Source: Arsenophonus sp. NC-WZS1-MAG3
GTDB lineage: Bacteria; Pseudomonadota; Gammaproteobacteria; Enterobacterales; Enterobacteriaceae
Length of the DNA: 64,000 nt
Direction of reading: 5' to 3'
Assembly: GCA_052174535.1 (NCBI GenBank)
Contig: JBQMRQ010000100.1
Location: 6,506-70,505 of the forward strand
Position 1 is the stretch's first letter. Every line of letters starts with the position of its first letter. Positions 2,593-64,000 of this stretch are shown here, piece after piece. Under the pieces are notes generated by a model. It made no database searches. It saw only the letters and a list, made by a program, of their open reading frames with translations, and was not told the DNA's origin. The position numbers and the translations under genes are program-made.

Positions 2593-4047
2593 AATTATTA
2601 GCAAAATCTAGTTTGTAGCAATCACGCTACGTTTCACTTTAATGCTTCTTGTATCTGTTCTTGATCCTTAAAATTTAATATTGTTTAGCACTAGGATTTC
2701 AACAAGGTTAACTCTCTTAGATGGTTATAGCTTTTCTGAGCAAATAAAAGCAACTTTAATACCATTCAAATGGTTGCTTTTCTTAAACCACAGTGCTTCT
2801 AATATTAGTTTTATAGCGCACACTATCACGAAAAATTAATTTAATTAAATTTTTCATTCTTATTGACGCCCCATAGTGCACTGACGAGAAACATCGAATG
2901 CTTAACCATTCTTCTCAATCTTTCTCCAACTTCTTCATCGCTGTAGGATACGCTAAAAACCTTGACAATAAAATATCAAAAAACTTTATTAACGATATTT
3001 GTGGCCTTCTACTATCCAGGAGGAGAGCTCTGGAATTAACCTTAACTTTCGATTGTATGACTTTAAGAAGTGAAAGGGAGCATATTAGCTATTTTGTGTA
3101 ACTAATGGCGTTAATGCTGTATGCCAAAGAATATCTTTACTATTACATTCTAAAAAACTAATGACACCGGAACTGTGTGATGGGGTTATAACTGGCCGCC
3201 CCACAGCAAGCCTGAAAATACAATTAAGTCAAGATGTTTCGCAAGGCACATTGAGAGGTTTAACCTAACTCGTCTCTGACTTTTAGTAAGCATATTTGAG
3301 CGCAATACGCTCCTTATATCCATTCACAGCACCGCCAATTATAATCAGCAGGCAAGGACGATCAGCCTCTCCCTGACAGAACCGACAGATGCTTTTCGAC
3401 AAGAAATAAACGTTAGACGTATTGCTTAAAATCACGTAGATATAATTCTCTATGCTTTTCAAGCATTACCCCTATTTCAGTCTGATGACAACACTTTTAG
3501 AAAGAAACCATATCGTTTTCACCAAAAAACGCTAAGAAAGCTTCATGAAAATCACCGGTGGAATATCTGTAGAACAGCCATACTAACAATCATTCGCTTC
3601 TTTTTCACGCTTCAGACAAAGAAAGGGTAGAAATGAGCTATTGAAGTATATTCTATTCCAGTTGCGACCTCCTCCATTAATCTTAAGTACTTTAATCTAA
3701 ACATCGACAATATCAATCTGTATGGTTATCTGTAGTAAATAATCGTTATGAACGACCATATGAACCTGGTTGATAAAGCGGCGTTGTGAAGCATGTTGTT
3801 GCAGTATAATAGCTTCGAGCTCAGGTTCAATAGCGGTACACTATTAGTTTCTTGTAACACTATTACGGATGGATTCATGGAAGGGATAAGATAATATCTA
3901 GCTTCTCGGATATTTGTAGAGGTAAACCTTATTCATGATATATTATCTCTCTGTTATTGAAATCATCCATGAAACCAATCAGAAAGGAGAGGGATTATAT
4001 CCCGCTGCTATTTCCAAAAGCTCATACATCAAAAATGAGTATAATTC
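2593..4047 (-). mobile_element. IS256-family relic (copy 1), transposase destroyed
   Basis: Degenerate terminal IRs (aaattattagcaaaatctag at ~2593; catacatcaaaaatgagtataattc ending 4047). Minus strand reads KYPTAMKKLEK-like (rc of cttcatcgctgtaggatacg, ~2935). Colinear with the other copies. Confidence 0.85.
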
Positions 4048-4049
4048 AT

Positions 4050-4318
4050 ACTATATGTTATTATTTTGTTAAAAAATAATAGAAGATTTTGATTTATCTA
4101 ACTTTTAAAATTACACTTCTGTAAAATTGTAATTTTTATTAGAAATTTTAATTTTAAAATAAGCTATATTAAGTTTCTTTAGTTTCTATATAAAAATTTA
4201 TCTTTAAGGAATAGAAAGTTCAAATATATTGAAATTTATTAGCAACAGTTAATGCTTTTTTATAAAAATTATTCTTTTCCATTAAAATTAATTAATCATT
4301 TCAATTAATCGTTGAAAA
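4050..4318 (+). pseudogene. yecM: Probable yecM remnant
   Basis: Plus-strand reading LLKLH...ISYIKFL*F...KYIEI resembles YecM LFKLH...SIVELPWP...EHIEI. Position between argS and cutC matches enterobacterial synteny. Very decayed. Confidence 0.4.
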
Positions 4319-6781
4319 GGCTATATTGCAAAGGTTGTTAGTAAAAATCTCTTAATACTGCAAGAAGAATTTTCGCTACAGCGATTCCCATAAAATAAAC
4401 AGTTATTATAGATTAAAGAGATATTTTCTCGCTCTCTGCCAACATAAAGCTGCATTTAATTAGTGTTTAGGTCGGTGAATAATCTATTATATTATCTAGA
4501 TTCTCATATATTTAAAACTTATTTCACTTTATCATGCTCATATTATCACAGTGAAGATGTTATCCGTTCTTGCATTCATTAGTGTTACAGCATATCGTTT
4601 TAAAATTCACGATTATAAGAAAACATTTAATAATCTTACTGGAAGTTCTCTGGTGAAATTAATCACAAGGATAAATGGTTTAGTTATTTCCAATGTATAT
4701 TGAATAGATTGACTTTACAGGGAGAGAGTCATCATAGCGAAAGAAAGAGATATTAATTTAAAATCAGCATTTAAATAGCAGAACTGCTTCCTTATTTCAT
4801 CGGTAATACCCAATAAATCCCTAACTGATATTATTGAAGTCAATAAAATATTTTCTCTGAATCCTTTAAATGGAGGCATTATATTTCACATGGAAAAGTG
4901 AAAATACGGGAAGGGAAATAAAAAGAAGGAATTGCGATTTTAATAGGAAAAAATCGACAGGAGTTATTGTAATCGATGAGATCTTAAAAAGATTAATACA
5001 GAATGTATTAGGCGTTTTCTTGAGCTTATCATAAATAAGAGTCCATTCTTTACTCAGATAGTACCTCTAAAATAGTATGAAATTTTGCTAGTTAATATGA
5101 AATTAATTAGCATCGCCTAATAAAGTTGGTAACCAGATAGTTATTGGTAAAATGAATTCTAGATTCAAACTATGAATAGTTATATCAGTAAACTAAAAGA
5201 ATGGTGAGTTATGATAATTTCTGGTATATGGAGCTTTGGAGATGATGACGTGTATCCTGCCTAATTAATTTTATAGTTGATTCCAATCATATTGATATGA
5301 TATCAAATATTGATATGATAAGATATGAAGTTACCCCCATAGATTTCACGAGATTAGATATTACCTATAATCCTTTGTATTAACTTATCTGTATCCTAAT
5401 ACGGTAGCTCTGGATAGCCACTTGTTGCTTAGATAGAATCGAATCCATGATGCAACCAAGATGCTGAATACTAATTTTATCAACGGAACATCACATGCCA
5501 TCGTTTATAACAATTATTTGCTATAGCATATTATAACAGATCAGTATTAGCAATATTGAGATTAAAGTGCCTAATATTACAGGGATCACAACGGCAACGG
5601 AATATCCTTTAACAGCTTGTTGCTATCGTTTAACCTAAAATAGGTAAAAGTAATGAAGAGTTACTACTATTGCCTATATATGCGACAAGGCATATTTATC
5701 GATAATTTCGAACATACTGAGATATTTCTCGGTGAGAAATACATAATCATTCTCGCTAGAGAAACATCAGAAGATTAAAATAGCAATGACTTTAAAATAA
5801 AAGTAATAGGGTTCCTGCGTGATTTAAGCAATACACGATACCTACTATACTTTTATTTTTTGAGAGATGGCATATATCTAGCACTATCAAGCAAGATAGT
5901 GCCCTCTTTTTTCTGCTGGTCATTATTAGCGGCCTTACATGAATGTAAGGAAATTCATTGCAATCGAAGATGTTTATCAAGAATCAGTAGCGAACTTTAA
6001 CATAACTTTTCAATGACTGATGAGCGCATTGCTTAAGCATATTTTCAGGATTTCTAAGGAAGACTCTGCCATTAGTTTTAAACACAATATCAAAGAGATT
6101 CCTGGACATCTAGCATTAATGCTATTGGGTACTATAAAACAGCTAATGTGACGCCTTCATTCCTAAAGGAATCTAATCGAAAGTTTAATGGTGAGCTATG
6201 GAGAGGTCTGCCTAACAAGAAAGGTGCGCTATACTGTTGATAAAGTTTTTGATGTTTTCTTAGTAAAGTTTTCAGTGTACTTTTCAGCGATGAAAAGTTG
6301 AAGAAACACCGAAAAGAACGCTGACATTCTACGACTTCCTGTTAGTACACTGATGTCAGTAAAAACGACAAATCCGATTGAATTGGTTTTTGCGATAGTG
6401 AATAAGACTATAAAGGCGATACGTAAAAAAGTGTAGTTAGAAGAAAACAGCCCTTTATGATATTTAAGTTATCCGCCATCTGTTCAAAAACTAGAACCAG
6501 AAAAAGAAATTTCGATCTATGATCATACTATTAAACAGCGTCAAATCTAAAGATGACTAATAGATTCATAAGGTTCTAGCTCCAGATGTGGAAGTAGCCT
6601 GATCATCATACACCAGATTTACTAATAACTCAAGGATAGCTAAGTAGCTTCCATGGTCTAGGGTCTTTTATTTATTGAATTATCTGATCTAGAGAAGATT
6701 TTTAAAACTAGAATAATTAAAAATAGAGAGGTGGCTACAATTTGCTCTGCGAGCAAAGCAGCAACCTTTGCTAATATAAAT
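4319..6781 (+). mobile_element. IS1595-family relic (copy 1), interrupted by IS256 at 5206-6631
   Basis: Left IR ggctatattgcaaag at 4319 and right IR ctttgctaatata at ~6766-6781. Body is colinear with copies at 31557, 57354 and 62561 (caaactatgaatagttatatcag = QTVNSYIS). Net length after removing the IS256 and one TSD is 1028 bp. Confidence 0.85.
5206..6631 (+). mobile_element. IS256-family relic (copy 2), nested in IS1595
   Basis: IRs gagttatgataatttctggtatatgg / catacaccagatttactaataactc. Relic motifs IEIKVP..RD..GNGISFNS (~5560-5610) and TTNPIE (acgacaaatccgattgaa, ~6365). Flanks aagaatggt / aaggatagc. Confidence 0.9.
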
Positions 6782-9444: not shown

Positions 9445-9474
9445 ATTCTAACAGATTTTATCCTTATCTGTCAC
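9445..9474 (-). promoter_or_regulatory. Candidate sigma70 promoter for cmoAB (-35 GTGACA / 18 bp / TGn-TAGAAT)
   Basis: Minus strand reads gtgaca gataaggataaaatctgt tagaat, 40 bp upstream of the cmoA ATG. The -35 hexamer is the last 6 bp of the IS481 relic. Confidence 0.45.
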
Positions 9475-11961
9475 TTCTCTAGAACAGTAGTATAGTCTTA
9501 TTTTTTAAATAATTTATTTTTAACTTTGAACTAATCTTTCATAGATTGCAATAGAATTTTACTATCTAATGCTGATTAGAGTTAATTTCTGATTGTATAA
9601 ACAATCATATTAATACAGGGTCATCTGCAAGCTCTTAAGCAGAATTAAAATGATGTCTTTGAATCCCATCTTTCATGGCTCATTAAATTGCTAGGCCATA
9701 CTATTTGTTTAAAATACATAGGTAGGATAAATCTCTGTTCTATATAAATCTCTACACATAAACAATTGAATTCATACTTTCCAGTAGTTGAATATTTTAA
9801 TAGATCAAAAAGGCGATCTGTAAATTTTTTTTTATTATCTGTAAATACCCAATAGATAATATCTATTTGGGATATACTCGATTAAAATCACGTAATTAAG
9901 CGTCGAGCATTAGCTGCGGTCCTTGATCTTGTAAAAGCAAATAAACCCATTGAATAATGTGATCTATATTTATAAAAATATAACGTTATAAAATTTCGTC
10001 TTCCATTTATGGAAGACATTTAAGATTAAGTATAAATAATCATGCTCGTAGCTTTTAAACGCTTTATAGTTTTCGACTTCGGGTTTTTGCTTCGCTTCAT
10101 TTCAAGTAAATTCTTCGTATAAGCCTGCATAAACAATAATCCAGGCCAGATAGGAAATACCTTTTGAGTTCAGAAAATTTGCGTACAACGCTGCCAGCAG
10201 ATCAGCGAACAAGAAATATTTTTTGAAAGAAAAACGACTGCAGCTTATCTAAGCAGATAACAGCGTTATCAGAAAATGTGGAATAGAATGTTAACTGTGA
10301 TCATCAACATCATCTCGTTTTTACCATTTAATAAACAGGTAAGTTTAATATACTAAAACGCTTAACTAAAGTAAATACAGCTTCTTTTCTAGCCTCTGAA
10401 TAGTAGTTCTAATTTTAGATGTTGTAGTTACTGATAATGAAGTCTCATCATCATATTTTACTCTAAACTATATCCATAAGTAGCCATCATCTTGCCATGA
10501 ACATGGCAGTGCGATGAGTTAACCAGACAATCTAGTATATCACAAATCGGAATACTACACTCTAATGCTTCGTAAATTTATTCTCCATTCTTAAGTAAAA
10601 TGTTGTTTACCAGGATGGTTAGTAGATTAACCCTTTAAGGCGATTCCAGCTTTTCTGAATAGACGAGGAGCACCTTAAATACCATTGAAGAGTTGTTTTC
10701 TTAAGCTACACTGCTTCGCGCGTTACCTTCATAGGCTTTCACCTATCACAAAACTAGATTTAATTTGATTTGTCGTTTTTATTGACATCATAATGAACTA
10801 ACGGGAAGCCATAGAATGCCCAGCCATTCTTTTAACTCTTTTTTTCAGCTTCTTCATCGCTGTAGGATACGTTAAAACCTTACTAATAAAGCATAAAAAG
10901 TTTTATTAGCAGCGTTACGACCCCCCCTCTACTAACCTGAGCTCCTAAGAAGAATTTAGCTTTAACTTTTAGTTGAATGCCTTTTAAGATTAAAACCAGA
11001 ACATCAGCTATACGTAACCAAAAACATTGATGCTGCGCGCTCATAAATATTTTTCCATTGTATTAAAAAAACTAAAAGCATCATCTTCGTAGCAAGCATG
11101 AAGATATAGTTAAACCCCGTTTACAGGGAATTAGAATTTAAGTGCAGTTCGCTTCTGACTATCGATAACCATTTTTGAGCACAATTGGTCTCCTTACATC
11201 CATGGATAGTAAGGTTGATTTAACTAGCAGATAAAGGAATTAGCTTATCTGACAGGACCAATATATATCCATAGATCAAGAAATAAATATAGCGCGTATC
11301 GCTTTAATCACGTAACCGCCATTGTCTATGCTCTTTAAGGCATTACTGCTTCAGTCTCCTGATGGCACTTGAGAAGATATCATATGATTTTCATCGAAAA
11401 ATCTTTACAGGGGTTCATGAAAATCACCGGTAGAATTCCTTACAGTGAGGTCATTGCAGTTACGGGTAGTAAAATCTTTCAACGCTTTTTAGATGTTTTA
11501 AATGCTTTAAATAAAAGGTAGCAACGAGTTGCTGACCATCTTATTCCATTGTGGCTAAGAGATTTCCCCCTTGACTTTAAGCACTTTAATCTTAATATCG
11601 CCAATAGTAGTTTACTATAGTTCATTACGGTAAATAATTGTTACCGATAACGGTATTTAATACTCCTTCATAAAGGCAACGCCACAGCATATTGTACTAG
11701 CATGGCTTCTAATTCCATCTCAACAGCAGTGCCTATCAACTGGCTTTCAGCATTACGGATAAATTCATGCAATGGATCACAGGTAATATCTAGTTTTGCT
11801 AATATCTATAAGGTAGATTTTATGGCATATCATCTCTATATTATTGAAATCATTCAATAAATTAATCAACAAAATATACGCTAGCATATCCAAAACTACA
11901 TATACCAGAAATGGATATAACTCCTGTACGACGAAGGTCTATATAATACCGGGATCAAACA
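9469..11961 (-). mobile_element. IS481-family relic (copy 1), interrupted by IS256 at 10516-11923
   Basis: TGT...ACA ends (tgtcac at 9469; ccgggatcaaaca ending 11961). Minus strand gives YNQKL.QSALDSK...MKD*FK and a MIIAL-like start. Colinear with the copy at 53237. Net length about 1076 bp. Confidence 0.85.
10516..11923 (-). mobile_element. IS256-family relic (copy 3), nested in IS481
   Basis: IRs gagttaaccagacaatctag / catataccagaaatggatataactc. Flanks cagtgcgat / ctgtacgac (6/9 identical, degenerate TSD). Confidence 0.9.
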
Positions 11962-18350: not shown

Positions 18351-18431
18351 GATTTTAATTTTCCTTAAAAATATTAATTTAATGAAAAATCATTTTTGCG
18401 TTTTTAACATCTATAAAATAACTATATAAAG

Positions 18432-19831
18432 GAATCATTAGAAAATCTAGTGTATGCTGATCAGGGCTATAGTCTGCTTTTATGCTTTATAAATCTGCTC
18501 TCTATCCTAAAATTGGATCTTTTACTAGCAGAGTCGCAGCAGGTTAAATTCTCTTAGTCGGTTCCAGCTTTTCTGAGTAGATAGAAGCAACTTAAATAGC
18601 ATTAAAGGTTATTTTTCGAATCACAGTGCTTCTAAATTCGCCTTCATAGCCTCAACTCTCATAAAAACTAATTCAATCCAAATTTGTTGTTTTTATTGAT
18701 GTCCAGTGCGCTAACGGGAAGGCATGGAATGCTAGGATGTTCTTCTCGCTCTTTATCCAACTTCTTTATTGCTGCATGAATACTTATCCCGATAACTTTT
18801 TTAACAAAAACATCAAGGGCTTTATTAATGATATTGCTGCTCTCTGTTAGCCATGACCTTTTCCACCGCAACTCAGCCTTAACTTTTTTGCCTGTATCTC
18901 CCCTCTTGGAAGTAAAGAAAACAGATTACCTATTTTGTATAGGTGTGTAATTGCGTTAATACTGCATATTCTGGAATATCTTTCCATTAGATTCCTAAAA
19001 ATCAAGAGTAGATCTCTCTTCCTATAGGAAGTTTGTAGATGGAGTTAAACCACGTGCTCGCGCCAATCCAGAGGTTAGCTCAGTGCACTTCTGACTCTTG
19101 ATAAGCATCTTCAACTGTAATGAGCTCCTTACGTTTATGTGCAATAACGTCGATAATAAGAAGCAGCTAAAAGCAATTAGTTTGCCTGACAGGACGATAA
19201 ATATGTCACCAGAACAGAAATAAACGTAGCGTCGTATATCATTTAAATCATACAGCTAGCCATTGCTTATGTTCTTCAGGCATCAATATTTCACAGTCTA
19301 CTGATAGTGTGCTGATAAAGAAAACCATGTGCTTTCATCGAAAAGCTCTATGGCTTTCGTTAAATCACCGGTAAATAATACCTTATTTCTTATAGGTGCA
19401 GGCATGGTAGAAATTCTTCGATCTTTTTATACGCTTCAGATAAGGCCGTAGCAATGAGTTATTGAAGTATATTTCGTTATCGCTGTAACTCTTCTGATTT
19501 TAAGATCTTTAAATATAAATATCGTGAATAGCAGTCTATAATATTGGTTCGCGGTGGTAAATAACTGCTATACCGTAAGATAAGAAGGCATTCAGTATCT
19601 TCTAACAATATAACATTGAGACCACCTCAACAATAGTGCTATTAGCTACCTAGAGGATAATTACGGATGAGTTAATGCAAAGGATAAAAGTAATATCTGA
19701 TTTTGGCAGATATCTGTAGGATAGATTTTTCATGAGATCTCATTTCTATATTGTTGAAATAATTCACAAAATCAATCGCAGAAGACACGGTAGAATTTTA
19801 AAAACTCCATACACTAGAATAAATCTCTCTC
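18432..19831 (-). mobile_element. IS256-family relic (copy 4)
   Basis: Ends gaatcattagaaaatctagtgtatg / ctccatacactagaataaatctctctc. Body colinear with the other copies. Sits at the creA/mrdB junction. Confidence 0.85.
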
Positions 19832-23790: not shown

Positions 23791-23809
23791 ATTTTAAATT
23801 AAATAAAAA

Positions 23810-25203: not shown

Positions 25204-25453
25204 AATAAGAGTATCAAGTTATATTTCAATCAGTTAAAACTTCTGTTAAAAGAAATAAGCATAAGATAATTTATCTTTAGAACTAATTTTAGTAAAACTA
25301 ATTGAACAATTATAATTAATTTCAGAATGATTTATCGAAAATTATGCTTTATTCATCACTAATCATCTAAAAATCGCTAAATAGATACCCAATCACCTTA
25401 TATACTCATAATAGTTTATGTATGTTTTATAAATTTTTATATTTGTTAATTAG

Positions 25454-35261: not shown

Positions 35262-35465
35262 AAAGTTATTTTCACTAATTATCGTCTTATTTAAGCATAT
35301 TAAATAATAATACTGATAAACTAAATATTATTATTCACAATAATATCTATCATTTATTTTCTATTAAAATAAATGATAATTACTATTGTATTTTTAGTTA
35401 ATTATTAATTTAACTTTAACTAGTAAATAAAATATAAAAAATTTTTTTCTTTAATAATAGTTATT

Positions 35466-35714
35466 AACTTATGCTTATTTTATATAAGAGTTTTCGGAAA
35501 TGGGTGGTATCGTATCCTCTGATCATTGATTTCATAAATGATCTCAACAATTAAAGATGAGATGATATGTTATGAAAAGTCTACTTTACAGAAATCTATA
35601 AATAAAAGATTATTCTGATCCTTTTCATGAACTCTCTTCCGTTAATGTTCATAAGACAGCTAATAAGCACCGCGTGTTAAGGGTGATCTTGAAATCATAA
35701 TGCTGCAACAATAT
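35466..35714 (+). mobile_element. IS256-family left-end fragment (copy 7)
   Basis: Left IR-like aacttatgcttattttatataagag, start atgaaaagtctactttacag, DYSDP.HEL. Stops abruptly where copy 8 begins. Confidence 0.8.
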
Positions 35715-36989: not shown

Positions 36990-37051
36990 CTTTTATTATT
37001 CACTATTACAATTTTAAATAAAAATAACCAGTAAAATAGATTCTACTTTCA

Positions 37052-41645: not shown

Positions 41646-41913
41646 GTAATATGCTTGCAAAGATTGTTGCTTTGTTCTCATAGAGATTTATAAGCACGTC
41701 TATATTTCAATTGTTGTGGTTTTAAATAATCTATTTTAGGCTAGATAATTCGGTAAATAAAATAACCCTATACTATGGATCAAGCTTATGTATCCTTTTA
41801 ATTAGCTAATATAACTATTTACATTTTGAATGTGGAATTTATTTCCAATAACTCTCTGATTATTAAGGCTTATTATATGATAATAACTAATTTCATGCTT
41901 GTTAAGAAAGGGT
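41646..41913 (-). mobile_element. IS1595-family 3' fragment (copy 3), cut by IS256
   Basis: Aligns by eye with 57354-57620 (tcctttaattagctaatataactatttacattttgaatgtgg = rc of HIQNVNSYIS.LKG). Ends at the IS256 left IR. Confidence 0.8.
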
Positions 41914-43265: not shown

Positions 43266-43293
43266 TCCGCTTTCTTCTGATCTTAGAAAGGTT

Positions 43294-49224: not shown

Positions 49225-51270
49225 TTTATTACACCAAGATCCTCTTATTTGCATATATAGGAAATAACTGATTCAAGTGATTCCAGGCTTCTTAATACCA
49301 TACTATCTCCTATTTTAACTACTGCATCGCGTAAATAATTAGCATAGAGATAGATAATTTCGAGATCAACAAACTTTCCGATCATATTTTGCGTATCTTC
49401 GAAATTTACTATTAAATTATTTCGGCACAGCCGAAAAATTTCCGTAATATTTTTATAAAAAAGTCTTTCTTAACTAAGATACATTGAATAACTACTTAAC
49501 GAGTTATACTCATTATATGGTATATGGAGTTTTAAAAAAAATAGCGTATCCTGCTGATTAATTTTGCGGATGATTTCAACATCAGAAAAGATGATATGCT
49601 ATGAAAAGCTTACTCTCTATAGTATCCGCGAAACCAGATATTACCCTGATCTCATTGCATGAACCTATTTGTAATGCTACCAGGAGCTTATAGCATCGCT
49701 GTTAAAGGTGAGTTCTAAGGCAATGTTGCAAATAAACCTGCTCAACGCGCTTTGTTGACGTGAGGGTCTAATGCCGTCGTCCGTAACAATTATTTGCCAC
49801 CGTAAATCTACAAGACTGATATTGTAAATATTGAGATTAATGGCCTAAGATTAAAATGGGATAGCAACGGTAATAGAATATCCTTTAACAGCTCATTGTT
49901 ATCGCCTTATCTAAATCGTGCAAGAAGAAGGTAAGAGTTGCTACTATAACTTTACCTGCTAAGAATGCATCTTTCCAACGATGATTTTTATGAAGCTCTA
50001 TAAGCACTTATTAGTAAGAAAGCAAATGATCTTCCTGCTAGCTGGCATCAAGAGATTAAAACAGTAATGACTTGAAGAGAATTGACAATGCCTAGCTACG
50101 TAATTTACGTGATACACCCTCTACGTTTATTTTGGTACTGATAGTATATGCAATGGCCTATTTAGGTATACTGATCGTCTTTGCCTGCTTGATTATATCC
50201 AACGAGAAACCTACTGTATATGGGATATTAAGGAGCTAGATTTCGGTAGAAGATGCTTATCGAGAGTCAGAAGCGAACTAACTAAACTTCTCAATAACTT
50301 GTAAGCGCGCATGGTTTAACTGTATCTCCCAGGGCTTGGTACGGAGGACGCAGTACTTAGTTTTTTAGAATGTAATGGAAAAGATATTTCCGAATATGCA
50401 ACAACGCTGCTAGTACATAAAATAGCTAATGTACTAGGTTTCACTTCCTAAAAGCATGAAGCACTGAAAGTTAAGGGTAACCTGCTAGAGTCTGGTTAGC
50501 AGATAGTCGTAATGCCATTAATAAAGCCTAATATTTTTGGTAAAATTTTAGCAAAAAACTATACTAATTCTATGAAGAAGCTGAAGAGATATTGAAAATA
50601 ATAGCTAGCATTCTATGATTTTCCATCAGTGCATTGGACGTCAATAAGAATGACGAATCCAATTGAATTAACTTTTTTTTGCAAAAATAAGACTATGAAT
50701 CGAAGTGTAAAAATTGTGGTTTAAGAAAAAAATCCTTTTAATAGTATTTTAGCTACTTCTGCATGCTCATAAGGGCTGTAACTAATTAAAGGGAAATTTT
50801 GACCTGTTGATCATTCTGGTAAAGAATATCTAATTTAAAGATGGAGAACAGATTTAGAAAATTTCAGAATTGAAATATGCTTATCTTTAACTTCACATCA
50901 TCTCTAGTAGATGATGTGAAGTTCGTAGATCAAAAAATAATACTCACACTGCATGGCCTAGCGGACCTAACACGTTGATAAATGAATTACTTTCTTATGA
51001 ATCGACACAACCACCTCACCCCAATACCAATAATAATATTAATTAATATCTTTTTATCTTTTTTAATGTCCTAATTAATAAAATACCTTTTTACGTTTTT
51101 CACGAATTTAGCAGATATCTATAAGCAGTAGAATATCAAAATCTTAAGCAATCTCTATTAATTAATATACATAGCCTTGTTGAGCAAAGATAGCCTTTTT
51201 AATAAATCATATTCATTCATCTGGCGACAGAGCCCACCCATAGATTTTAATCTATAGTTTTATTTCTAAA
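49225..51270 (-). pseudogene. miaB: tRNA-2-methylthio-N6-dimethylallyladenosine synthase pseudogene, split by IS256
   Basis: N-terminal part RQMNEYD...IGV...SIIFD.RT.HHL (51270-50905). C-terminal part VNFEDTQNMIGKFVDLEI...ESVI...DLGV (49500-49225). The central radical-SAM core is missing. Confidence 0.88.
49501..50905 (+). mobile_element. IS256-family relic (copy 11), inside miaB
   Basis: Left IR gagttatactcattatatggtatatggag at 49501. RITTNPIE-like (~50645). Right IR truncated into a palindrome. Confidence 0.87.
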
Positions 51271-52646: not shown

Positions 52647-53236
52647 CATAAAATTAGTTATGATATTTTTTCTATTGTGTTTGAAAACCCTGTTCTTCAG
52701 ATTGAAAATCTATAAAAATTAATTAATTTATTCAATTGATTAAAAAAATCTATTTTTATTATTTTTATTTGTTAATAAATAAAGTTTTATCGTTTTTATT
52801 ATTTAATAGTCATGGGGGCCACTTGGCATATGTTTTTCATATTTCTATCATGTTACTGTGATATCAATAGCTATATTTGATATTGCATACTTTACACACT
52901 TCAAGTTAAAATTAGATCGCTACTATTTTTTAACGGCGTTATTAATTACTTATCTAAATTTACCTTTTTTATTATTTTCATATTGCTTAATATTATTTAT
53001 TTCACTTCCAGCTCAGCTGCTTAGCTGTAAAATAATTTACTAACAAATATAGGATTATAATAATTAATAATAAAAAATAATTATAATTATCTTGAAAAGA
53101 AAGTTATATTTTAAATAAAAATTAGCAAATAATTTTAATCTAAATTTCTATATTTTCAGTTATCCCTCCCAAAAACTCTCAACTTTTAAAAATTTTTTTT
53201 AGTTATCTTTTACTAAAATGCTAAATATGCTAGGGA

Positions 53237-54302
53237 TTACACATCCCAGTAAATAATTTTTTTAAAAAATTTAAGTTTAGTTTTAAATCAATCTTTCATA
53301 GACCGCAATGAAGTTTACTACCTAATACTACTTAGGTAATTCCTGATTGTACAGATAAATATATTGATATTCAATCATCTCAAACTCTTCATTAGAATTA
53401 AAATGATAGCTTTGCAGCCCATCTTTTAATACGTCCATTAAATTGTTCAACCATATTATTTATGAAGATAACTCGCCAAGATAAGTTGGTCTTCTATAAT
53501 CAAGCTCTGTACACAAATACTTGAATTCCTATTTTCTGGTGGCTGAACCTTTTGCAGAGAAAACAGCGATCTATAAATTCTTTTCCATTATCTGTAAGTA
53601 CCTAATTGAATAGGCATAAGAGCCATGCTTAGTTAAGCTCACATAAGAAAGGTCGTGCATTGAACGCAGTCTTTATTCTTCTAAAGATGAATAAAAACCG
53701 ATTTAATAGACAGGAGCCGATCTATACCTATGAAAAGATAATATCATGAAGTTTCATTTTGTATTCTTGCAAAAGATATTTACATCTACGTGCAGGATAA
53801 CCTAGCTCGTAGATTTTAAACGCTTTATGCTTTTTGGCTTTGGTGGTTTTCCTGTCTTTATTTCACGCAAATTCCTTACTTATGCCTGTATAAACAGTGA
53901 TTCAGGCAAGATTTAGATACTAAGAGATTTAAGAATTTGTGTACAATTGCTAGCAGATAGGCTAGAGGAAGAAAATATTTTTACAGGAAAACGACTATGG
54001 CTTATTGAACTGCTGCTAGAGTTCTTCGTCAACAAACAATGAGGAATATGGCTATAATCATCAATATCATCTCGTATTATGCTATATAATAGTAAGTTCA
54101 GAGATTCTCTAATACTTAACTAAAGTAAATCCCAGGCTCTTTTCTTAACTTGAAAAGCAGCTTTGATTTTAGATTCTATAATTTCTTAACGATGGAGGCT
54201 AATCATCATAATATTTATCTGAACTATATTCTTCATAGTTCTATTGCCAATGAATAGAACTGTGCAATGATGATCATTTATATAATGATCCGAGATCAAA
54301 GA
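53237..54302 (-). mobile_element. IS481-family relic (copy 2)
   Basis: Minus strand reads VLTDNGKEF (53576-53601) and NMVEQFNGRI (~53430-53460). IR-like ends ttacacatcccagt / tataatgatccgagatcaaaga. 1066 bp. Confidence 0.9.
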
Positions 54303-54738: not shown

Positions 54739-55591
54739 CTGATTTTTATGATTTTTACAGAAAAGTATCTATTTTTTAGATTGTTGATTATTCTATCGAT
54801 AAATCAACAAAAAATAATATCGTTTTATAAAATATATAATAACTTTATATGTTAAATATTAAAGCTAATTAATTTAAGATATTCCTGATAATAAAACGAG
54901 TGATGCTTTTTATTTCAATGATATTGTTAATTTCTATTAACAATAGAAAGCATATTATTCGTTTAATCAAATAAATTATTAATAATAATCAAGTAATTTT
55001 CTTATTGAGCGAAAGTGAAATTAGCGCATAATATTATCTATACTGTTACATAACAGCGATTAATAATAGCTATTATCTATTAACCATATTTTATATAAAT
55101 ATAAATATTAATATCGACAATAAATTTTTTATACTTTAGCTAGTAAAAAGGATATATTAATCTATTACAATGCTATTATAATCGAATTAAATAGTACAAA
55201 AGCTCACCATTTAACATAGGACGTTTAATTAATAGAAAGTAGCAATAACTGAATTATGTCCTAACTGTAAAGTAATAATTGATAAATCATTACAGAAATT
55301 TTTTAACACTTTAGTTAGTTTTGATATAGTTTTGCAGGTGTGGCAAAAAACTTTTTCTATTACTATAATTTCTCTCCGCGATAACTACTTTTACGGATTA
55401 AATAGGTTAATGATAATGCCAATTGCACTACTAATACATGGACTGCGTATTTAATCACTTCAATGCTAATGATTATTTTTATTTACTATCTGGAAATTAG
55501 CTTTAATAGAATAATAATTTAATTTTAATTGCCTTGGGTAATTTTGTTCAAATTGTTGCCTAATTCTATTTTCAATAGTGCTATAGCTGTA

Positions 55592-56997
55592 GAGTTATGC
55601 TAATTTCTAGTGAATGAAATTTCAGAGATGATAAGAGTAACTCTACTGATTAATTTCATAGATTATTTTAATATCAAAGATATAACATCTCATAAAACAA
55701 TCTACCATATAGATATCTGCAAATCAGATATTATCCATGATTCATTACATGAACTACATGAACTCATCTATGAATAATGCCAGGGAGCTCTGATAACACT
55801 GTTGTTAAAGATGAGCAGAAGCCATAACTGTGACAAATATGAAAGACTGCCTTGTCGATGAGCACCAAGCTATTGCCAATAATAGTTATTTGCTACAAGC
55901 ATCTATAACAGATGGGTATTGGCGATGTTGAGATTAAAGTGCCTAAGATTAGGAACTTGTAGTAGCAACGAAATATGCTTTAACAGCTCCTTGCTTCCGT
56001 TTTATCTGAAGCGTGCAAAATATCAAAGATTTGTTCTTATGACTCTTTTTACAGATACACCAGTGATCTTCATGAATTCATAAGGGAAAGCTTCTTAGTG
56101 AGAAGCGCATGATCTCTCTCTGCTAGTACTATTAGCAAACTGAAATAGTAATGGCTTGAAGAGAATTAGGAATGTATTACTTATGTGATTTAGCGATACC
56201 CCTAACGTTTATTTCTTTATTGAAGGCATATATCATTCTGATAATCAAACTGATCATATTTGCCTGCTTAGTTATATTGTCGGAACTGTGCATAGACGTA
56301 ATGAGATTCGTTGTGGTTAAAAATGGTTATTAAGAGTCAGAAGCATACACTGGGGCGAACTTCTGGATGACCGCGCGAGCGGCGTGGCTTAAGAGTATCT
56401 CCTAGATTTGCTACGGGATAAGGTGTGATTAGTTTTGAGTGCAATGGTAAAAATATTCCCAGATATTTAGTACCAATCTCCTGTTGGGTATACAAAATAG
56501 CTGATGTGATGCATACCTTCTCCAAAGGTATGTAAGCGAAAATTAATGGTGATTCGTAGGAAGGAATGCCTAGCTAGAGAGGGTTGCATGCCGATCATAA
56601 CGATTATGATGTTTATTAACAAGATTTTTAGTTAATCTTACTCTATTGCAGCGATGAAAAAGCTAGAGAAAGAACGAGAGGAACTCTGTGGCATTCTACG
56701 ACTTCCTGTCAGTCAGTTATACTGGACACTAATTAAGAACGACGAATCCCAGATTAAATCGCCTTTTGTGATAGTGAAGCTACGAAGCTGATGCGAGAAG
56801 AAGTGTTTTTTAAAAAAAACCCTTTCAATGGTATTTAAGTTGCTATTTCCTGTTAAAAAGCTAGAGCTGCGCTAAAAGGATTTGATCTGCTGACTTTTTG
56901 TACTAATAACGTTCAATTTAAGGATGAAAAATAGATTTTCTGAAACATAAGAGTGGAGTGGAACTTGATCATCATGCATCAAATTTGCTAATAATTC
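55592..56997 (+). mobile_element. IS256-family relic (copy 12), inside nagC
   Basis: IRs gagttatgctaatttctag / catcaaatttgctaataattc. Flanks atagctgta / ttgactata. 1406 bp. Confidence 0.9.
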
Positions 56998-57353
56998 TTG
57001 ACTATAATTGTTTCGAGACAACTAAATTTACCGTAATGATGACTTTATTTTAATAAATCTATTTGTAGATGACCGATTTCACTCAGGTTATGACAGTTAT
57101 TCAATAAAATTTTACCGCCCATAATCATACCTAGCTTCAGCATCGCCGCCCACGATGAATGCGTACAAAAATTAAATTGACGAAATTTTATGTAATACCA
57201 AAATAATGCTCTGCCAACGTAAAACAACAAAATTTATGACTGATAAAAGAATTTAGAGAACTATGGTGTAAGCAGCGCAGTTATGCTGCTTTAGGATTTT
57301 CCTGATCTGAGTACTGTCTTATATCCTGCAATATACTAATTTTTATAATTTAG

Positions 57354-58379
57354 GGCTACCTTAGCAAAGGTTGTTACTTTGTTCGCAGAGCAATTTGTAA
57401 CTACGTGTTTATATTTTAATTGTTATAGTTTTTAACAATTTCTGCAGGCCAGCTATAATTTAGTAAATAAAAACCCCTCCTATAGCATGAAATCTACTCA
57501 GTCATCCTTTTAATTAGCTGATATAACTGTTCACAGTTTGAATGTGCAATTCCTTATCACAACTCTCTGATTATCAACCTTATTAGGCGATGCTGAGTAA
57601 TTTTATGCTTGCTAGCAAAGCTTTGTATCATTTACCTCTATCTGAAAAATAACTCTTTATCAATAATCGGATCAAGAAAAAAAGGATAACATGCTCTTTA
57701 TTAAACTCTTCAAGAATCTTATTGCTCACATAACCCTCGTAATCTTGAGCGATTAAGAGCACAATTCATTCTTTTCTTTTCTTTGTCCTTTTCCGAATTT
57801 TTTATCTTTCTTATCTGGAATATAACCCTTCCTTTTAAAAAATTCATGAAAAATGTTTCGTCAACTTCAACAACACCAATTAGTGCATTTATGTTATCTA
57901 TCGCTACTACTAAAACAAGAAACAGTGATATCTTCCATCTAAACCCTATTTTTAAATCAATATTTGTTTTTCTTACTTCCGTAAATTTAAGCTATTAAAC
58001 TACATTGAAGATAACTAAAGCATTTATCCTTCTGATGTAGTTTCGCCAAAAAACTTTCAGTATGATTGTTAAATGTTTTCCTGTAATAGGGAATTTTGCA
58101 ATGATATCGCTGCAATCCTAATAAGTGTCCTCAGCAGATAAACATGTTAACTCTGACATTATAGATGGGATAGAGTGGAATGAGTTGCTTTAATGTATGA
58201 ATCAATATCATCCGATAGATTGTTATCTAGGCAATTAATGAGATCCAGCTTTATGTTAGTAGAAAGCAAGAAAAATCTCTTTATCTGTATGACTGTTTAT
58301 TTTTATAGCAACTTTCTGTAGCTAAAAATTCTTTATGCTGTATAAAGAATTTATATAAATAACTTTTAACAATATAGCT
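57354..58379 (-). mobile_element. IS1595-family relic (copy 4), inside nagC
   Basis: IRs ggctaccttagcaaag / cttttaacaatatagct. Minus strand reads ALIGVVEVDETFF (57849-57890), LHIQTVNSYIS and a zinc-ribbon-like GLQRYHCK. 1026 bp. Confidence 0.9.
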
Positions 58380-58604
58380 AGAATTAACATATCGCAGTGT
58401 ATAAATATACTCTACTCATGAATATTTACGAAGCAGTATATCTGTTGCAGGGCTCATGCGTAACGTGCTAGGTTCTAGATTATCTAATATAGATAAAATA
58501 ATGAAATAGAAATCAAACTTGTAATTAGGAGGTTGATGTTATTAAGAAAAATTTTAATGGCTGAAATTAAATGATTTTTTATTTCTTATTGAACAATTTC
58601 TTAT

Positions 58605-59992
58605 AAGTTATTAGAAAATCTGATGCATGTTTGTTAGACTATGCTATACTCTGATGCTTCATAAATCTATTATCCATCCTTAAATTGGACCCTGTTTACC
58701 ATGAAGTTAGCAGATCAAATCCTCGTAGCCTGTCTAGATATTCTGAAAAAACTGTAGCAACTCAATACTGTATTTGAAAGTATTGATTTCTCGAAACACA
58801 GTTACTTTAGCAGATCAGCTTCATAGGTTCGCTCTTCCAAAAGTTGATTCAATTAAATTCGTTGCCCTTATTGACGCCTAGTGCTTTGACAAGACGTCAT
58901 AAAATGCCAGCATCCTTCTTCGCTCTTTCTTCAATTTCCTAATCCCTAGTAGGAAAGGGATACTTATACTAAAAATATTGAAAAACCTTGCTAACAAAAT
59001 ATCAATGGATTTATTAGCGGCATTACGGCTATCTGCTGGCCAAACTTCCGACAGTTCACCCTTACTTTCGGTTGCATGTCTTTGGTGAATGAAGCAGAAT
59101 ATCAGTTATTTATACACACAATAACATTACTACTGCGTGTCCTGTAATATCCTTGCCATTGCCATTCTAAAATCAAGAACACTACCTCTGTAGGAAGTAT
59201 GGGAGGTGCGGTTAAGTTCTCTGCACTTGCAGACCACCTAGAAGTTATGACAGTTTGCTTCTGACTTTTAATAATCCTTTTCACACGCAATGAGCTCATT
59301 ATGAGCATGCGCAATAACATTAATAATAACTAGTAAATAAAGTCATCAGCTTTCTTGACAGAACGGCATATTACTTTCGCCAAAATAAATGTAATACGTA
59401 TTGCTAAATCATGCAGGTAGCACTAATGTCTATACTCTTCAAGCCATTACTATTTAGTCTGCTGATGGTATGGCAGAGAGGGATCATGAGTTTCTCACTG
59501 AGAAACTCCCTCATGAACTCATGAGGATAACTGATATATCCGTAGAACAGGAATAGTGGAACTCTTCGATTCCCTTCACGTTTTATATAAGGTGGCGCAA
59601 TGAGCTTATAAAAGTATATTCCGTTGCCACTACGGATGCACCTTAATCTTAAGCAGTTTAATCTTAACACTATTAATAGGAATTTGTATACTTCGCTGAA
59701 GAAAATAATCGTTACAGATGGAGGTTGAGTCTACCAATTAAAGAGCGTTTCAGCATTTTGCTGGAGTTATGACTTTGATCTCTGCCTTAACGACGGTGTT
59801 ATCTATCAGCTTCCTAGTAGCATTACGAATTAGTTCATACAAGGGTTAAGGTAATATCTGGTTTCACAAATACCTCTGTGGTAGACTTTTATGGCATATT
59901 ATTTCTCTGTTGTTAAGATTATCTATAAAAACAATCAGAATAATACGCCATACCATCTCCGAATTTCTATACACTAGAAATAAACATAACTA
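58605..59992 (-). mobile_element. IS256-family relic (copy 13)
   Basis: Ends aagttattagaaaatctgatgcatg / ctatacactagaaataaacataact. 1388 bp. Ends 6 bp from the nagA stop codon. Confidence 0.87.
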
Positions 59993-59998
59993 GATTTA

Positions 59999-62186: not shown

Positions 62187-62330
62187 TGTCTTATTATAGA
62201 AGGAATATATAGTTTTTAAAATAATTTAGGTTTAGTTTTGAACTAATCTTTTATAGACTGTAGACTGTAGACTACAATAGAATTTTACTACACTAATTGG
62301 GGTAATTGTTTAATTTCGATTATTATATAG
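62187..62330 (-). mobile_element. IS481-family right-end fragment
   Basis: ttttgaactaatcttttatagac...aatagaattttactac aligns with 9525-9570 and 53280-53325. Confidence 0.7.
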
Positions 62331-62365
62331 ACCCTTTCGTCCCACAGTAATATTCATAACAAGGA

Positions 62366-64000
62366 TGTCTACTGAGAAATTATAGTTAAAGATAATATTA
62401 TGATAATGAAACTTCATCGTCAGGCAAATATAATACCTAAAATTATATCCATTCTTCAGGTTTTAAGCCAGAAAAAACCTGCGTTTTTTAGCTAAAATGT
62501 TATGGAATTCTCTTGACTTACCGTTACTAAAGAATAAAATCAAGATGATATTGATGATTTGGCTACGTTGGTAAAGGTTGTTTTGCTTTTCTCAGGGAGC
62601 AATTATAGCTATGTTATATATTAATTCTTATTGTTTTAAACAATCTTCTCGAGGCAGATAATTCTGTATTTAAATAAATCTACACCTTAGATCTACTAAG
62701 AAATCTTTTTAATCGGCTGAGATAATTATCCATATTTTAAATGTGAAATTACTTATCAATAATTTTCTGATTATTTTATCTTTATTTAGATAAAAATGAT
62801 TAATTTCATACTATTTTGGCAAAGTTTCGTATCATTACCTCTATCTATCTCTATCTGAGATAATGATGAACTCTTTAATCCATAATCAGATCAAGAAAAG
62901 GAATAACATACTCTAGATTAAACTCTTCAAGAATCTCATTGCTTACATAACTATCTTAATTTTTTGCAATTAAAAGCGTAATTCGTTTTTTTCTTTATTC
63001 TTTTCTTTATTTTGTGTTATTTAGCTTTATAATGTTTGAATATAACGCTTCCCTTATAAACGCTTCCCTTATAAAGGATTCAGGGAAAATGTTTCATTGA
63101 TTTCAAGAATACCCTTGCTACATTTATATTGGCTATCACCGCTAAAACAAAAATGATGATGCAAAATATAAACGCTGTTTTCAAATTAATACCTGTTTAT
63201 TTTTCTGACTCTTGTAAAGTCAATTTTATTCAACATATATCCATAGATAACTAAATAATTTAGCCTTGTGATGTAGTTTTGCAAGAGGACTTTTAGTAAA
63301 ATTATTAAATGTTTTCTACAATCGGAGATTTTTTAATGATATTGCTGTAAGCACTATGGATCTCCCTAATAGATAACATGTTCACTTTAATAAAGTGACA
63401 GGATAAAGTGGAATAGGTTGTTTCAATGTATGAATTGATATTATTCGATAGATTATTATCTAAGCAACTAATAAGATGCAAATTTATATTGGTAGAGAGT
63501 AAGAAAAAGTATCTTTGATCTATATGACTAATGACTGCTTGCTTTTTATGACAATTTCTGTAGAAAAAATCCTTCATATAATATAAAGGATATTATCTAC
63601 CAATAACTGTTACAAACATAGCCTGATAATCACACTCCATATTTCCCATCATTTTCTGGACCCTATCGCCAGCAGCTTAGGGAGTATACTTATTTTCTTG
63701 CAAAAACAGTTTTCTTTCTTTTATTTTGATCTGTTACAGTCCTATACTAATTTCTGAATCTAACATTGTATCTTGATTTGATATGGATCGCTGTTTACGC
63801 AAGCGCTCATACGGGTAATTTATGTGAAATAAGATAGAAAATCCCTAAAGCTGAAGCATAAAACATTTAAAACTAGGAGTCTGGTTATTTATACATAGAT
63901 ATACATAGATATGAAATTTCTTCCGCAAATGTTAAATAAAGCTTCACGACGTTATCTTTTTGTAGGTATAGATCGCACACTTGATAAGTTTTATGCATCT
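62366..64000 (+). mobile_element. IS481-family relic (copy 3), interrupted by IS1595, runs off the window end
   Basis: MIMKLHRQA..IPKI (62400), resuming at 63624 with D.HTP, DRCLR, KHKTFK and IDMKFLPQM..KASRRYLFVGIDR (63900-63980). Confidence 0.88.
62561..63623 (-). mobile_element. IS1595-family relic (copy 5), nested in IS481
   Basis: IRs ggctacgttggtaaag / gttacaaacatagcc. Flanks tgatgatt(t) / tgataatc. Colinear with 57354-58379. Confidence 0.88.

What the first reader, a model, noticed from the sequence alone, without database searches (positions are those of the whole stretch)
2593..64000. About 40% of the window is a hidden graveyard of four IS families
The apparent intergenic voids are not random DNA. 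They hold 13 IS256, 5 IS1595, 3 IS481 (plus a fragment) and 1 IS91 relic, about 25 kb in total from my coordinates. None has an intact transposase, so ORF-based annotation would miss them. The copies decayed independently, so a consensus should resurrect each ancestral element.
Basis: partly seen in the sequence, partly recalled or inferred. Interest (0 to 1): 0.7.

Follow-up and report, generated by a model that had tools for sequence, protein, structure and literature searches.

The report
Fossil bloom of four dead IS families
About 40% of this window, and 35% of the whole 2.3-Mb insect-symbiont (Arsenophonus) genome, is the decayed wreckage of one ancient burst of four jumping-gene families; the wreckage is shared site for site by sister species, which makes it an unusually large bacterial "fossil record" of mobile DNA.

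Summary
The window holds 13 IS256, 5 IS1595, 3 IS481 and 1 IS91 relic plus two small fragments. Together they cover 25,760 bp, 40.2% of the window. None has a stop-free stretch above 121 aa.

Genome-wide, the four families give 1,050 nhmmer hits covering 814 kb (34.8%). All are dead; the longest stop-free stretch is 161 aa.

Copies are about 70-75% identical to a bias-aware consensus, with a spread of only about 2%. No paralogue pair in IS256 exceeds 74%. This fits one old burst followed by independent decay.

The reconstructed transposases pass NCBIfam cut-offs for all four families. They match living transposases over their full length at 74-87% identity.

New here: four sister Arsenophonus MAGs carry an IS256 graveyard of the same size (the other three families were not counted there). 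The window is colinear with two of them. Relics mutate at the same GC-to-AT rate as four-fold synonymous sites. recA is undetectable in the clade, and small indels show no deletion bias. DNA is lost only in rare kb-scale deletions.

The kind is known (IS fossils in Wolbachia), but the scale and age are exceptional. Three of the four consensus frames needed hand-joining.

The parts
2586..4053 (-). IS256-family relic, near full length
   Evidence: nhmmer model positions 14-1402 of 1415, E 1e-293; orthologue in G024 and G001
4316..5231 (+). IS1595-family relic, left part (split by the IS256 at 5201-6637)
   Evidence: nhmmer 43-955 of 1115
5201..6637 (+). IS256-family relic nested inside the IS1595 relic
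   Evidence: nhmmer 14-1401; flanks GCTATCCTT / ACCATTCTT match at 6 of 9 bases, a decayed 9-bp target duplication
6632..6781 (+). IS1595-family relic, right part of the split copy
   Evidence: nhmmer 924-1074, colinear with 4316-5231
9463..10518 (-). IS481-family relic, full length
   Evidence: nhmmer 3-1033 of 1033
10513..11930 (-). IS256-family relic
   Evidence: nhmmer 17-1403
18425..19827 (-). IS256-family relic
   Evidence: nhmmer 13-1392
23801..25212 (-). IS256-family relic between mrdA and nadD; orthologous in four sister genomes
   Evidence: nhmmer 11-1405; aligned end to end with G024, G019, G001 and G017 at 88.7, 88.8, 77.8 and 63.1%
30727..31533 (+). IS91-family relic, left part (split by the IS1595 at 31529-32610)
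   Evidence: nhmmer 10-811 of 1698
31529..32610 (+). IS1595-family relic nested in the IS91 relic
   Evidence: nhmmer 18-1100
32563..33508 (+). IS91-family relic, right part
   Evidence: nhmmer 779-1698
33509..34715 (+). IS256-family relic that lost its last ~200 bp in a later 0.76-kb deletion
   Evidence: nhmmer 13-1198; the G001 orthologue is full length, 13-1402
35463..35715 (+). IS256-family end fragment
   Evidence: nhmmer 1161-1399
35706..36995 (-). IS256-family relic with an internal ~110-bp deletion (two hits)
   Evidence: nhmmer 11-1114 and 1227-1402
41649..41913 (-). IS1595-family fragment
   Evidence: nhmmer 808-1072
41908..43219 (+). IS256-family relic
   Evidence: nhmmer 105-1402; weak PF00872 six-frame hit at window 42750-43064 with 6 stops
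43287..44688 (+). IS256-family relic
   Evidence: nhmmer 30-1403
49494..50877 (+). IS256-family relic
   Evidence: nhmmer 55-1403
53230..54270 (-). IS481-family relic, full length
   Evidence: nhmmer 4-1032
55586..57004 (+). IS256-family relic
   Evidence: nhmmer 13-1402
57240..57352 (+). IS91-family fragment
   Evidence: nhmmer 58-172, E 2e-18
57350..58383 (-). IS1595-family relic
   Evidence: nhmmer 42-1078
58598..59998 (-). IS256-family relic
   Evidence: nhmmer 13-1402
62204..62306 (-). IS481-family fragment
   Evidence: nhmmer E 2e-14
62337..62570 (+). IS481-family relic, one part (split by the IS1595 at 62549-63639)
   Evidence: nhmmer 807-1032
62549..63639 (-). IS1595-family relic nested in the IS481 relic
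   Evidence: nhmmer 30-1086
63641..64000 (+). IS481-family relic, other part; continues beyond the window end
   Evidence: the seed 63641-65437 (window coordinates) matches the other IS481 copies over its first ~800 positions

Best explanation
The window lies in an Arsenophonus genome assembled from an insect metagenome (2.34 Mb, 31.5% GC). Its 'intergenic voids' are mostly dead insertion sequences left by one ancient transposition bloom of four families. The bloom began with IS481, then IS1595. IS256 and IS91 followed with overlapping activity.

The bloom happened in the common ancestor of at least five present-day Arsenophonus species. All transposases then died. Each copy has since drifted neutrally under a strong GC-to-AT mutation bias. 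About half of all ancestral G and C positions have changed, while about 90% of A and T positions are unchanged.

Shown:
- the repeats, their families and the absence of any live copy;
- their share of the genome;
- site-for-site orthology in sister species;
- a GC-to-AT rate equal to that of synonymous sites;
- the mutation spectrum;
- no detectable recA;
- balanced small insertions and deletions;
- lineage-specific kb-scale deletions.

Inferred:
- The wreckage survived because ectopic recombination between about a thousand repeats is impossible without RecA.
- It also survived because small indels do not shrink DNA here, so DNA leaves only through rare kb-scale deletions.
- The ancestor resembled A. 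nasoniae, whose plasmids still carry an 84-86% identical IS91.
For: Repeats and counts.

Family identity: Pfam on raw consensus frames; NCBIfam above cut-off for all four. Living full-length relatives:
- IS256, 87% to Symbiopectobacterium sp. RP.
- IS91, 84-86% to multi-copy IS91 on A. nasoniae plasmids.
- IS481, 74%.
- IS1595, 75% and 68%, with the same 318-aa length.
- IS256 terminal inverted repeats of 25-26 bp were recovered from 174 copies.

All dead: the longest stop-free stretch among 1,050 hits is 161 aa. The top 150 matches in five genomes each carry 8 or more stops of mixed kinds.

One burst with independent decay:
- Identity to the consensus is 0.70-0.75 with sd 0.016-0.023.
- The highest IS256 paralogue pair is 0.744 among 17,766 pairs.
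- C and G retention is the same (0.51-0.54) in all four families.

Shared ancestry:
- Sisters G001, G017, G019 and G024 each have about 1,000 IS256 candidates.
- The window is colinear with G024 and G001, apart from a few kb-scale indels, and every relic tested has an orthologue in both.
- 46.8% of the window's derived bases are shared with both orthologues, against 8.7% for paralogue triples.
- Sharing with G017 is 24.2%, equal to the paralogue baseline of 24.8%.

Neutrality:
- Genes are 95.9% and 93.5% identical to G024 and G001; relics are 85.1% and 75.8%.
- The GC-to-AT rate per site and branch is 0.094 in relics and 0.099 at four-fold sites.

Preservation:
- recA is undetectable in all five genomes, while all 14 control genomes are positive.
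- Polarised small indels are 134 deletions (197 bp) against 171 insertions (341 bp).
- Blocks of 0.76-4.4 kb missing from the window still hold relics in G024 and G001.
Against: - Three of the four consensus reading frames (IS256, IS481, IS91) were joined by hand across frameshifts in my alignment. No occupancy threshold gave one open frame for them.
- The bias-aware consensus can over-call G and C. The outgroup-polarised spectrum gives a milder bias, with equilibrium GC near 24% rather than 14%.
- The target-site duplication signal for IS256 is weak, z about 3-3.8.
- The 1,050 hits include fragments and split copies, so insertions are fewer.
- All genomes are draft MAGs. Recently active identical IS copies could have collapsed at contig ends. 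One-base indels could be assembly errors.
- Orthology with G017 rests on three relics on short contigs.
- The causal role of recA loss is an inference.
Confidence: 0.92

Rival explanations
1. The copies were killed at once by a targeted hypermutation process, such as a cytosine deaminase or a RIP-like defence acting on repeats, rather than by slow neutral decay.
For: C-to-T and G-to-A make up most changes, about 33% of ancestral C and of G. All copies are equally diverged.
Against: - The decay is nested in the species tree. None of it is shared with G017, about 40% net is shared with G001, more is shared with G024, and 19% is private. It therefore accumulated over time.
- The same GC-to-AT rate is seen at four-fold sites of intact genes, 0.099 against 0.094.
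- ung is intact in all five genomes.
Confidence: 0.03
2. Each species was invaded separately by the same IS families, so the graveyards are parallel rather than inherited.
For: Related live elements exist in other insect symbionts: Symbiopectobacterium and A. nasoniae plasmids. The G017 orthologues share no excess derived bases with the window.
Against: - The window is colinear with G024 and G001, with relics at the same positions, orientations and nesting.
- Flanks on both sides of the mrdA-nadD relic align in all five genomes.
- 46.8% of derived bases are shared, against an 8.7% baseline.
Confidence: 0.02
3. The elements are still functional but are read with a different genetic code or programmed recoding, or the repeats are functional non-coding elements.
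For: None beyond their abundance.
Against: - TGA, TAG and TAA all occur many times inside every copy, along with frameshifts.
- Relics evolve about 3.6 times faster than genes, and at the synonymous GC-to-AT rate.
- No Rfam family matches them.
Confidence: 0.01
4. The repeats are an artefact of a chimeric MAG, for example insect transposon debris binned with bacterial contigs.
For: The source is an insect metagenome and the assembly has 142 contigs.
Against: - Relics sit between intact enterobacterial housekeeping genes in conserved order on the same contig.
- The same arrangement is seen in four independent assemblies.
- The families are bacterial IS families, with the closest relatives in bacteria.
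Confidence: 0.01

Closest known systems
IS 'genomic fossil record' of Wolbachia (Cerveau et al. 2011, PMC3205602)
   Same: A host-restricted bacterium that keeps many non-functional, degraded IS copies recording past bursts. That paper asks whether such fossils are an overlooked general feature of prokaryote genomes.
   Different: - Wolbachia has 52-171 IS copies covering at most 11% of the genome. More than 70% are non-functional, several groups are still expanding, and transfer between strains is frequent (abstract).
- Here there are 1,050 hits covering 34.8% of the genome, and 100% are dead.
- Copies are about 25-30% diverged from their ancestor.
- The record is inherited site for site by several species.
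IS blooms in recently host-restricted symbionts and pathogens, such as Sodalis pierantonius, Serratia symbiotica and Shigella (from my own knowledge of the literature; see also PMC3056288 and PMC5091035 listed)
   Same: The same first step of the standard genome-reduction model: IS proliferation after host restriction.
   Different: Those blooms are young, with near-identical and often intact copies. This is the same process seen long afterwards, when every copy has decayed but has not yet been deleted.
Mycobacterium leprae reductive genome (own knowledge: about half coding, many pseudogenes, degenerate dispersed repeats)
   Same: Long retention of dead DNA, low coding density, and loss of mobile-element activity.
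   Different: The junk here is dominated by four IS families. ORFs of 100 aa or more outside relics cover only 28% of the genome. Composition has drifted far towards A+T.
Living relatives of the four elements
   Same: Full-length matches to the reconstructed transposases:
- IS256 family transposase of Symbiopectobacterium sp. RP, 87%.
- IS91 family transposase on A. nasoniae plasmids, 84-86%.
- IS481 family transposase on a Thioclava plasmid, 74%.
- IS1595 family transposase, 75% to an unnamed protein and 68% to Klebsiella sp. WOUb02, all 318 aa.
   Different: The copies in this genome are only about 70-75% identical in DNA to the reconstructed ancestors and are full of stops. No ISfinder name could be assigned with these tools.

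Membership tests
IS256 family | DDE transposase of the Mutator/IS256 type | tested here: met
   - NF033543 scores 277.6 bits (cut-off 150) over model positions 3-335 of 338, on the frame-joined consensus.
- PF00872 hits two raw frames.
- 87% identity over 99% of the length to a living IS256 transposase.
- Individual copies retain only weak traces.
IS256 family | Element of about 1.3-1.5 kb with terminal inverted repeats of about 25-30 bp | tested here: met
   Conservation across 174 copies starts and stops at GAGTTATTAGTAAATCTGGTGTATG and its imperfect inverse GAGTTATGCTTATTTCTGGTATATGG. The element is about 1,377 bp.
IS256 family | 8-9 bp target-site duplication | tested here: inconclusive
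   Over 125 anchored copies, flank matching exceeds shuffled partners only weakly: k=9, 0.358 against 0.313 +/- 0.013; k=8 with shifts, z 3.8. It is readable in the nested copy at 5201-6637 (6 of 9 bases).
IS1595 family | N-terminal zinc-finger plus DDE_Tnp_IS1595 (ISXO2-like) transposase in a ~1 kb element | tested here: met
   - The consensus gives one open frame of 326 stop-free codons at all occupancy thresholds from 0.35 to 0.6.
- NF033547 scores 184.7 bits (cut-off 75) and NF050000 scores 53.4 bits.
- PF12762 hits at 1e-16.
- Living relatives have the same 318-aa length, at 68-75% identity.
IS1595 family | Terminal inverted repeats and 8-bp target duplication | not tested
   The ends were too poorly anchored in my model.
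IS481 family | IS481-type DDE (rve) transposase in a ~1 kb element | tested here: met
   - NF033577 scores 249.1 bits (cut-off 224) over positions 11-282 of 284, on the frame-joined consensus.
- The next best model, IS3, scores only 66 bits.
- 74% full-length identity to an annotated IS481 transposase.
- Raw frames gave only weak rve hits, below cut-off.
IS91 family | HUH / two-tyrosine (Y2) rolling-circle transposase with an N-terminal zinc-binding domain | tested here: met
   - NF033538 scores 288.8 bits (cut-off 125) over positions 6-353 of 356.
- PF04986 scores 79 bits and PF14319 scores 43 bits on a raw frame.
- HPHVH and YLWRY motifs are readable in the consensus.
- 84-86% identity to IS91 copies on A. 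nasoniae plasmids.
IS91 family | No inverted repeats and no target duplication; distinct ori and ter ends | not tested
   Not examined.
Bacterial IS fossil record (as in Wolbachia) | Most copies non-functional, and old enough to be shared by descent between related genomes | tested here: met
   None of 1,050 hits is intact. Orthologous relics occur in G024, G019, G001 and G017.

The most novel reading that the evidence does not exclude
This Arsenophonus clade may preserve the largest and oldest IS fossil record yet seen in a bacterium. Relics cover 35% of the genome and differ from their reconstructed ancestors at about 26-30% of sites. Open frames of 100 aa or more cover only about 28% of the genome.

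The proposed reason is that the clade escapes the usual bacterial deletion bias. Small indels are balanced or insertion-biased, recA is undetectable, and DNA leaves only in rare kb-scale deletions.

If so, it is a natural, dated experiment on neutral mutation and DNA loss in bacteria. It would also be an exception to the rule that dead DNA is removed quickly.
Probability: 0.4. Interest if true: 0.75.

Novelty: new member of a known kind. Interest (0 to 1): 0.6.

Why it matters
The standard model of symbiont genome reduction has an IS bloom early and a streamlined genome late. The stage in between is rarely caught. Here it is preserved in at least five related genomes.

- About a thousand neutral markers per genome, with orthologues across species, give the mutation spectrum directly.
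- They also give the tempo of AT drift, the order of IS invasions, and the size spectrum of DNA loss.

On the practical side, gene callers and profile searches miss these relics. About 35% of the genome would be reported as unexplained intergenic DNA. The four nucleotide profiles built here would annotate the whole clade.

Tried and rejected
- My first multi-copy seed alignments mixed strands and matched every site twice. I redid them from single seeds.
- The plain HMM or majority consensus has 9-37 stops in every frame. I replaced it with a star-phylogeny maximum-likelihood consensus.
- Scanning column-occupancy thresholds did not open the IS256, IS481 or IS91 frames.
- The first target-duplication scan only picked up conserved internal columns.
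- I looked for young or live IS families after masking the four.
  - The only 90-97% identical repeats are ORF-less 1.4-1.5 kb segments on small contigs.
  - There is also one 4.7-kb pair, which I did not characterise.
  - No intact multi-copy transposase was seen.
- Literature searches for this clade, its MAG names, or an Arsenophonus IS graveyard found nothing. No Arsenophonus genome in the table of PMC10654098 has this size and GC.
- I considered and rejected a different genetic code, RIP-like hypermutation, parallel invasions and a chimeric MAG. See the rival explanations.
Full report
**Context.** The window is G000:C100:6506-70505 of a 2,338,533-bp draft genome with 142 contigs, 31.5% GC and 100% estimated completeness.
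- It carries 22 intact housekeeping genes in enterobacterial order: argS, cutC, cmoBA, yecN, aspS, yebC, rodA-mrdA, nadD-holA-lptE-leuS, coaD, recD, pitA, lnt-corC-ybeY and others.
- LeuRS is 83% identical to an Arsenophonus MAG and 75% to Photorhabdus.
- The DNA is found in an insect-metagenome run.
- Sister assemblies are named Arsenophonus sp. NC-PE1-MAG3, EOPcoel-MAG3 and NC-TX2-MAG3.

**The observation.** Self-BLASTN shows 21.6 kb of the window in self-hits at only 64-76% identity, falling into a few families.
- nhmmer profiles iterated over the whole genome from single window seeds converge on four models of about 1,415, 1,115, 1,033 and 1,700 bp.
- In the window they give 13, 5, 3 and 1 insertions plus two small fragments.
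- Three nested insertions are seen: IS256 in IS1595 at 5201-6637, IS1595 in IS91 at 31529-32610, and IS1595 in IS481 at 62549-63639.
- The union is 25,760 bp, or 40.2% of the window. ORFs of 100 aa or more take 38.5%, and 21% is neither.

**Identity of the families.** The copies are too decayed for protein searches.
- A six-frame Pfam search of the genome finds only seven weak Transposase_mut matches, each with 4-10 stops.
- ORFs inside relics hit nothing.
- I aligned the copies that cover at least 90% of their model (189, 76, 34 and 36). I inferred the ancestor under a star phylogeny with an estimated, asymmetric substitution matrix.
- The matrix is nearly the same for all four families. Ancestral C or G is retained at 51-54% of positions, with about 33% C-to-T and G-to-A. 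Ancestral A or T is retained at 90-93%.
- The reconstructed ancestors have 46-55% GC, against 32.5% in the relics today.
- Raw frames of these consensuses hit PF00872, PF12762, PF04986 plus PF14319, and weakly rve.
- The IS1595 consensus is one open frame (326 stop-free codons; 318-aa ORF from its first Met) at every occupancy threshold from 0.35 to 0.6.
- For the other three families I joined frames by hand.
- All four then pass NCBIfam's curated cut-offs over essentially the whole model.

**Independent validation against living transposases.**
- The IS256 reconstruction is 87% identical over 99% of its length to an IS256 family transposase of Symbiopectobacterium sp. RP.
- IS91 is 84-86% identical to multi-copy IS91 on Arsenophonus nasoniae plasmids.
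- IS481 is 74% identical to an annotated IS481 transposase.
- IS1595 is 75% and 68% identical to transposases of exactly the same 318-aa length.
- IS256 terminal inverted repeats of 25-26 bp are recovered from 174 copies.
- The 8-9 bp target duplication is only weakly detectable.

**Genome scale and death.**
- The four families give 477, 216, 204 and 153 hits, covering 420, 151, 108 and 139 kb. Together that is 814 kb, or 34.8% of the genome.
- No hit has a stop-free stretch above 161 aa.
- ORFs of 100 aa or more outside relics number 689 and cover 28% of the genome. A further 37% is neither ORF nor relic.
- After masking, I found no young intact multi-copy element.

**One burst, independent decay.**
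- Identity to the reconstructed ancestor is 0.699, 0.746, 0.726 and 0.716, with standard deviations of only 0.016-0.023.
- Among 17,766 IS256 pairs the maximum is 0.744.
- Mean pairwise identity (0.62-0.68) is close to the star-tree expectation of 0.585-0.652.
- Genome-wide nesting gives an order. IS481 is never a guest. IS1595 is a guest in IS481 (11 times) and IS91 (2 times) but never in IS256. IS256 and IS91 are each found inside the other (3 and 4 times).

**Inheritance.**
- Four of 24 same-genus genomes (G001, G017, G019, G024; 2.3-2.4 Mb) have an IS256 graveyard of the same size, and all listed matches carry many stops. Most of the others have no match.
- The other three families were not searched genome-wide in the sisters. 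They were seen only within the syntenic span of G024 and G001.
- Nearly the whole window (from about position 170) is colinear with G024 at 88-91% identity. It is colinear with G001 at 81-86% as far as the fetched stretch reached, about 60.9 kb.
- All 20 relic segments tested have an orthologue at the expected place in G024. Nineteen do in G001. The twentieth, at 62549-63639, lies beyond the fetched G001 stretch.
- Genes are 95.9% and 93.5% identical to G024 and G001. Relics are 85.1% and 75.8%.
- Over 18,720 sites the window differs from the ancestor at 26.4%. Of these derived states, 46.8% are shared with both orthologues (paralogue baseline 8.7%), 16% with G024 only, and 19% are private.
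- With the earliest-branching G017, sharing is 24.2%, equal to the paralogue baseline of 24.8%.
- So the bloom preceded the split of all five species. G017 branched almost at once. Roughly 40% of the decay preceded the G001 split.

**Neutrality and spectrum.** These figures are polarised with G001.
- The GC-to-AT rate per site and branch is 0.094 in relics and 0.099 at 2,689 four-fold sites of 21 genes.
- Four-fold sites are at 24.5% GC. The relics, at 32.5%, are still relaxing.
- The apparent AT-to-GC rate is higher in relics (0.030 against 0.017). At least part of this is mis-polarisation by parallel C-to-T changes.

**Why the wreckage survives (inference).**
- recA is undetectable in all five genomes, though all 14 control genomes are positive.
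- ung, recC and recB are intact. mutS is intact only in G017.
- Polarised small indels in 19 relics are not deletion-biased. The window branch has 59 deletions (79 bp) against 101 insertions (216 bp). The G024 branch has 75 deletions (118 bp) against 70 insertions (125 bp).
- DNA loss is visible only as blocks. The window lacks 4.4 kb at about 39888, 2.9-4.4 kb at about 43215 and 0.8 kb at about 50870. With G024 it also lacks 0.76 kb at about 33508.
- Two of these blocks (at about 39888 and 43215) still hold whole further relics in the sisters. The 0.76-kb block holds the missing end of the IS256 at 33509-34715.

**Comparison with what is known.** The nearest precedent is the Wolbachia IS fossil record, with 52-171 copies, at most 11% of the genome, more than 70% non-functional and some groups still active (PMC3205602). 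The present case is the same kind of thing, but larger, older, completely extinct and inherited across species. I found no description of it in the searched library. None of the Arsenophonus genomes tabulated in PMC10654098 resembles it.

**Caveats.**
- All genomes are draft MAGs.
- Three reading frames were hand-joined.
- The bias-aware consensus may over-call G and C.
- Hit counts include fragments.
- One-base indels may include assembly errors.
- Orthology with G017 rests on three relics.

**Verdict.** It is a new and extreme member of a known kind. Interest 0.6.

Noticed in passing
window 38894-39888 (hit at 39025-39165); G000:C98:12039-15596: The DNA upstream of intact recD is a decayed recB remnant. 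An intact recB (1,201 aa, 1,195 bits on TIGR00609, cut-off 696) lies on another contig in this genome and in all four sisters, and recC is intact too. RecD is therefore not orphaned. The genome once had two recB copies, or the gene moved.
   Followed up: partly
whole genome and sisters G001, G017, G019, G024: recA is undetectable in all five genomes. mutS is missing in four and intact only in the earliest-branching G017. ung is intact in all.
   Followed up: partly
window ~33508, ~39888, ~43215, ~50870: There are kb-scale deletions relative to G024 and/or G001 of 0.76, 4.4, 2.9-4.4 and 0.8 kb. The blocks at about 39888 and 43215 still hold further IS relics in the sisters.
   Followed up: yes
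window 33509-35715 (around coaD): The truncated IS256 left of coaD is full length in G001 (model positions 13-1402). Its missing end was lost in a later 0.76-kb deletion. The two IS256 pieces flanking coaD are therefore not permuted halves of one element.
   Followed up: yes
19 relics of the window compared with G024 and G001: Small indels are not deletion-biased: 134 deletions (197 bp) against 171 insertions (341 bp) on the two terminal branches, most of them single bases.
   Followed up: partly
whole genome: Nesting order. IS481 is never a guest. IS1595 sits inside IS481 and IS91 but never inside IS256. IS256 and IS91 are each found inside the other. IS91 was therefore not only an early invader.
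   Followed up: yes
window 15677-18424: A 2.7-kb stretch at about 23% GC has no ORF of 60 aa or more, no repeat and no RNA family match. It is colinear with G001 at 79% identity. Its origin is unknown, probably an eroded gene or genes.
   Followed up: no
window 54399-54671 (-): A tRNA-Gln, tRNA-Leu and tRNA-Met cluster lies in an otherwise empty gap. That gap is the best conserved of the non-coding stretches, 91.8% identical to G024.
   Followed up: no
G000 e.g. C88:17092-17396, C102:10628-10929: An unclassified AT-rich family of about 300 bp has up to about 55 matches elsewhere in the genome. I did not look for it directly in the window.
   Followed up: no
G000 small contigs C10, C25, C66, C115, C96, C139; also C27/C61: ORF-less 1.4-1.5 kb segments (27% GC) are 90-97% identical to each other, and a 4.7-kb pair is 93% identical. 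They could be younger duplications or strain variants in the MAG.
   Followed up: no
relics of the window, + strand: G-to-A (0.087 per site and branch) exceeds C-to-T (0.066) on the + strand. This may be a replication- or transcription-strand asymmetry.
   Followed up: no
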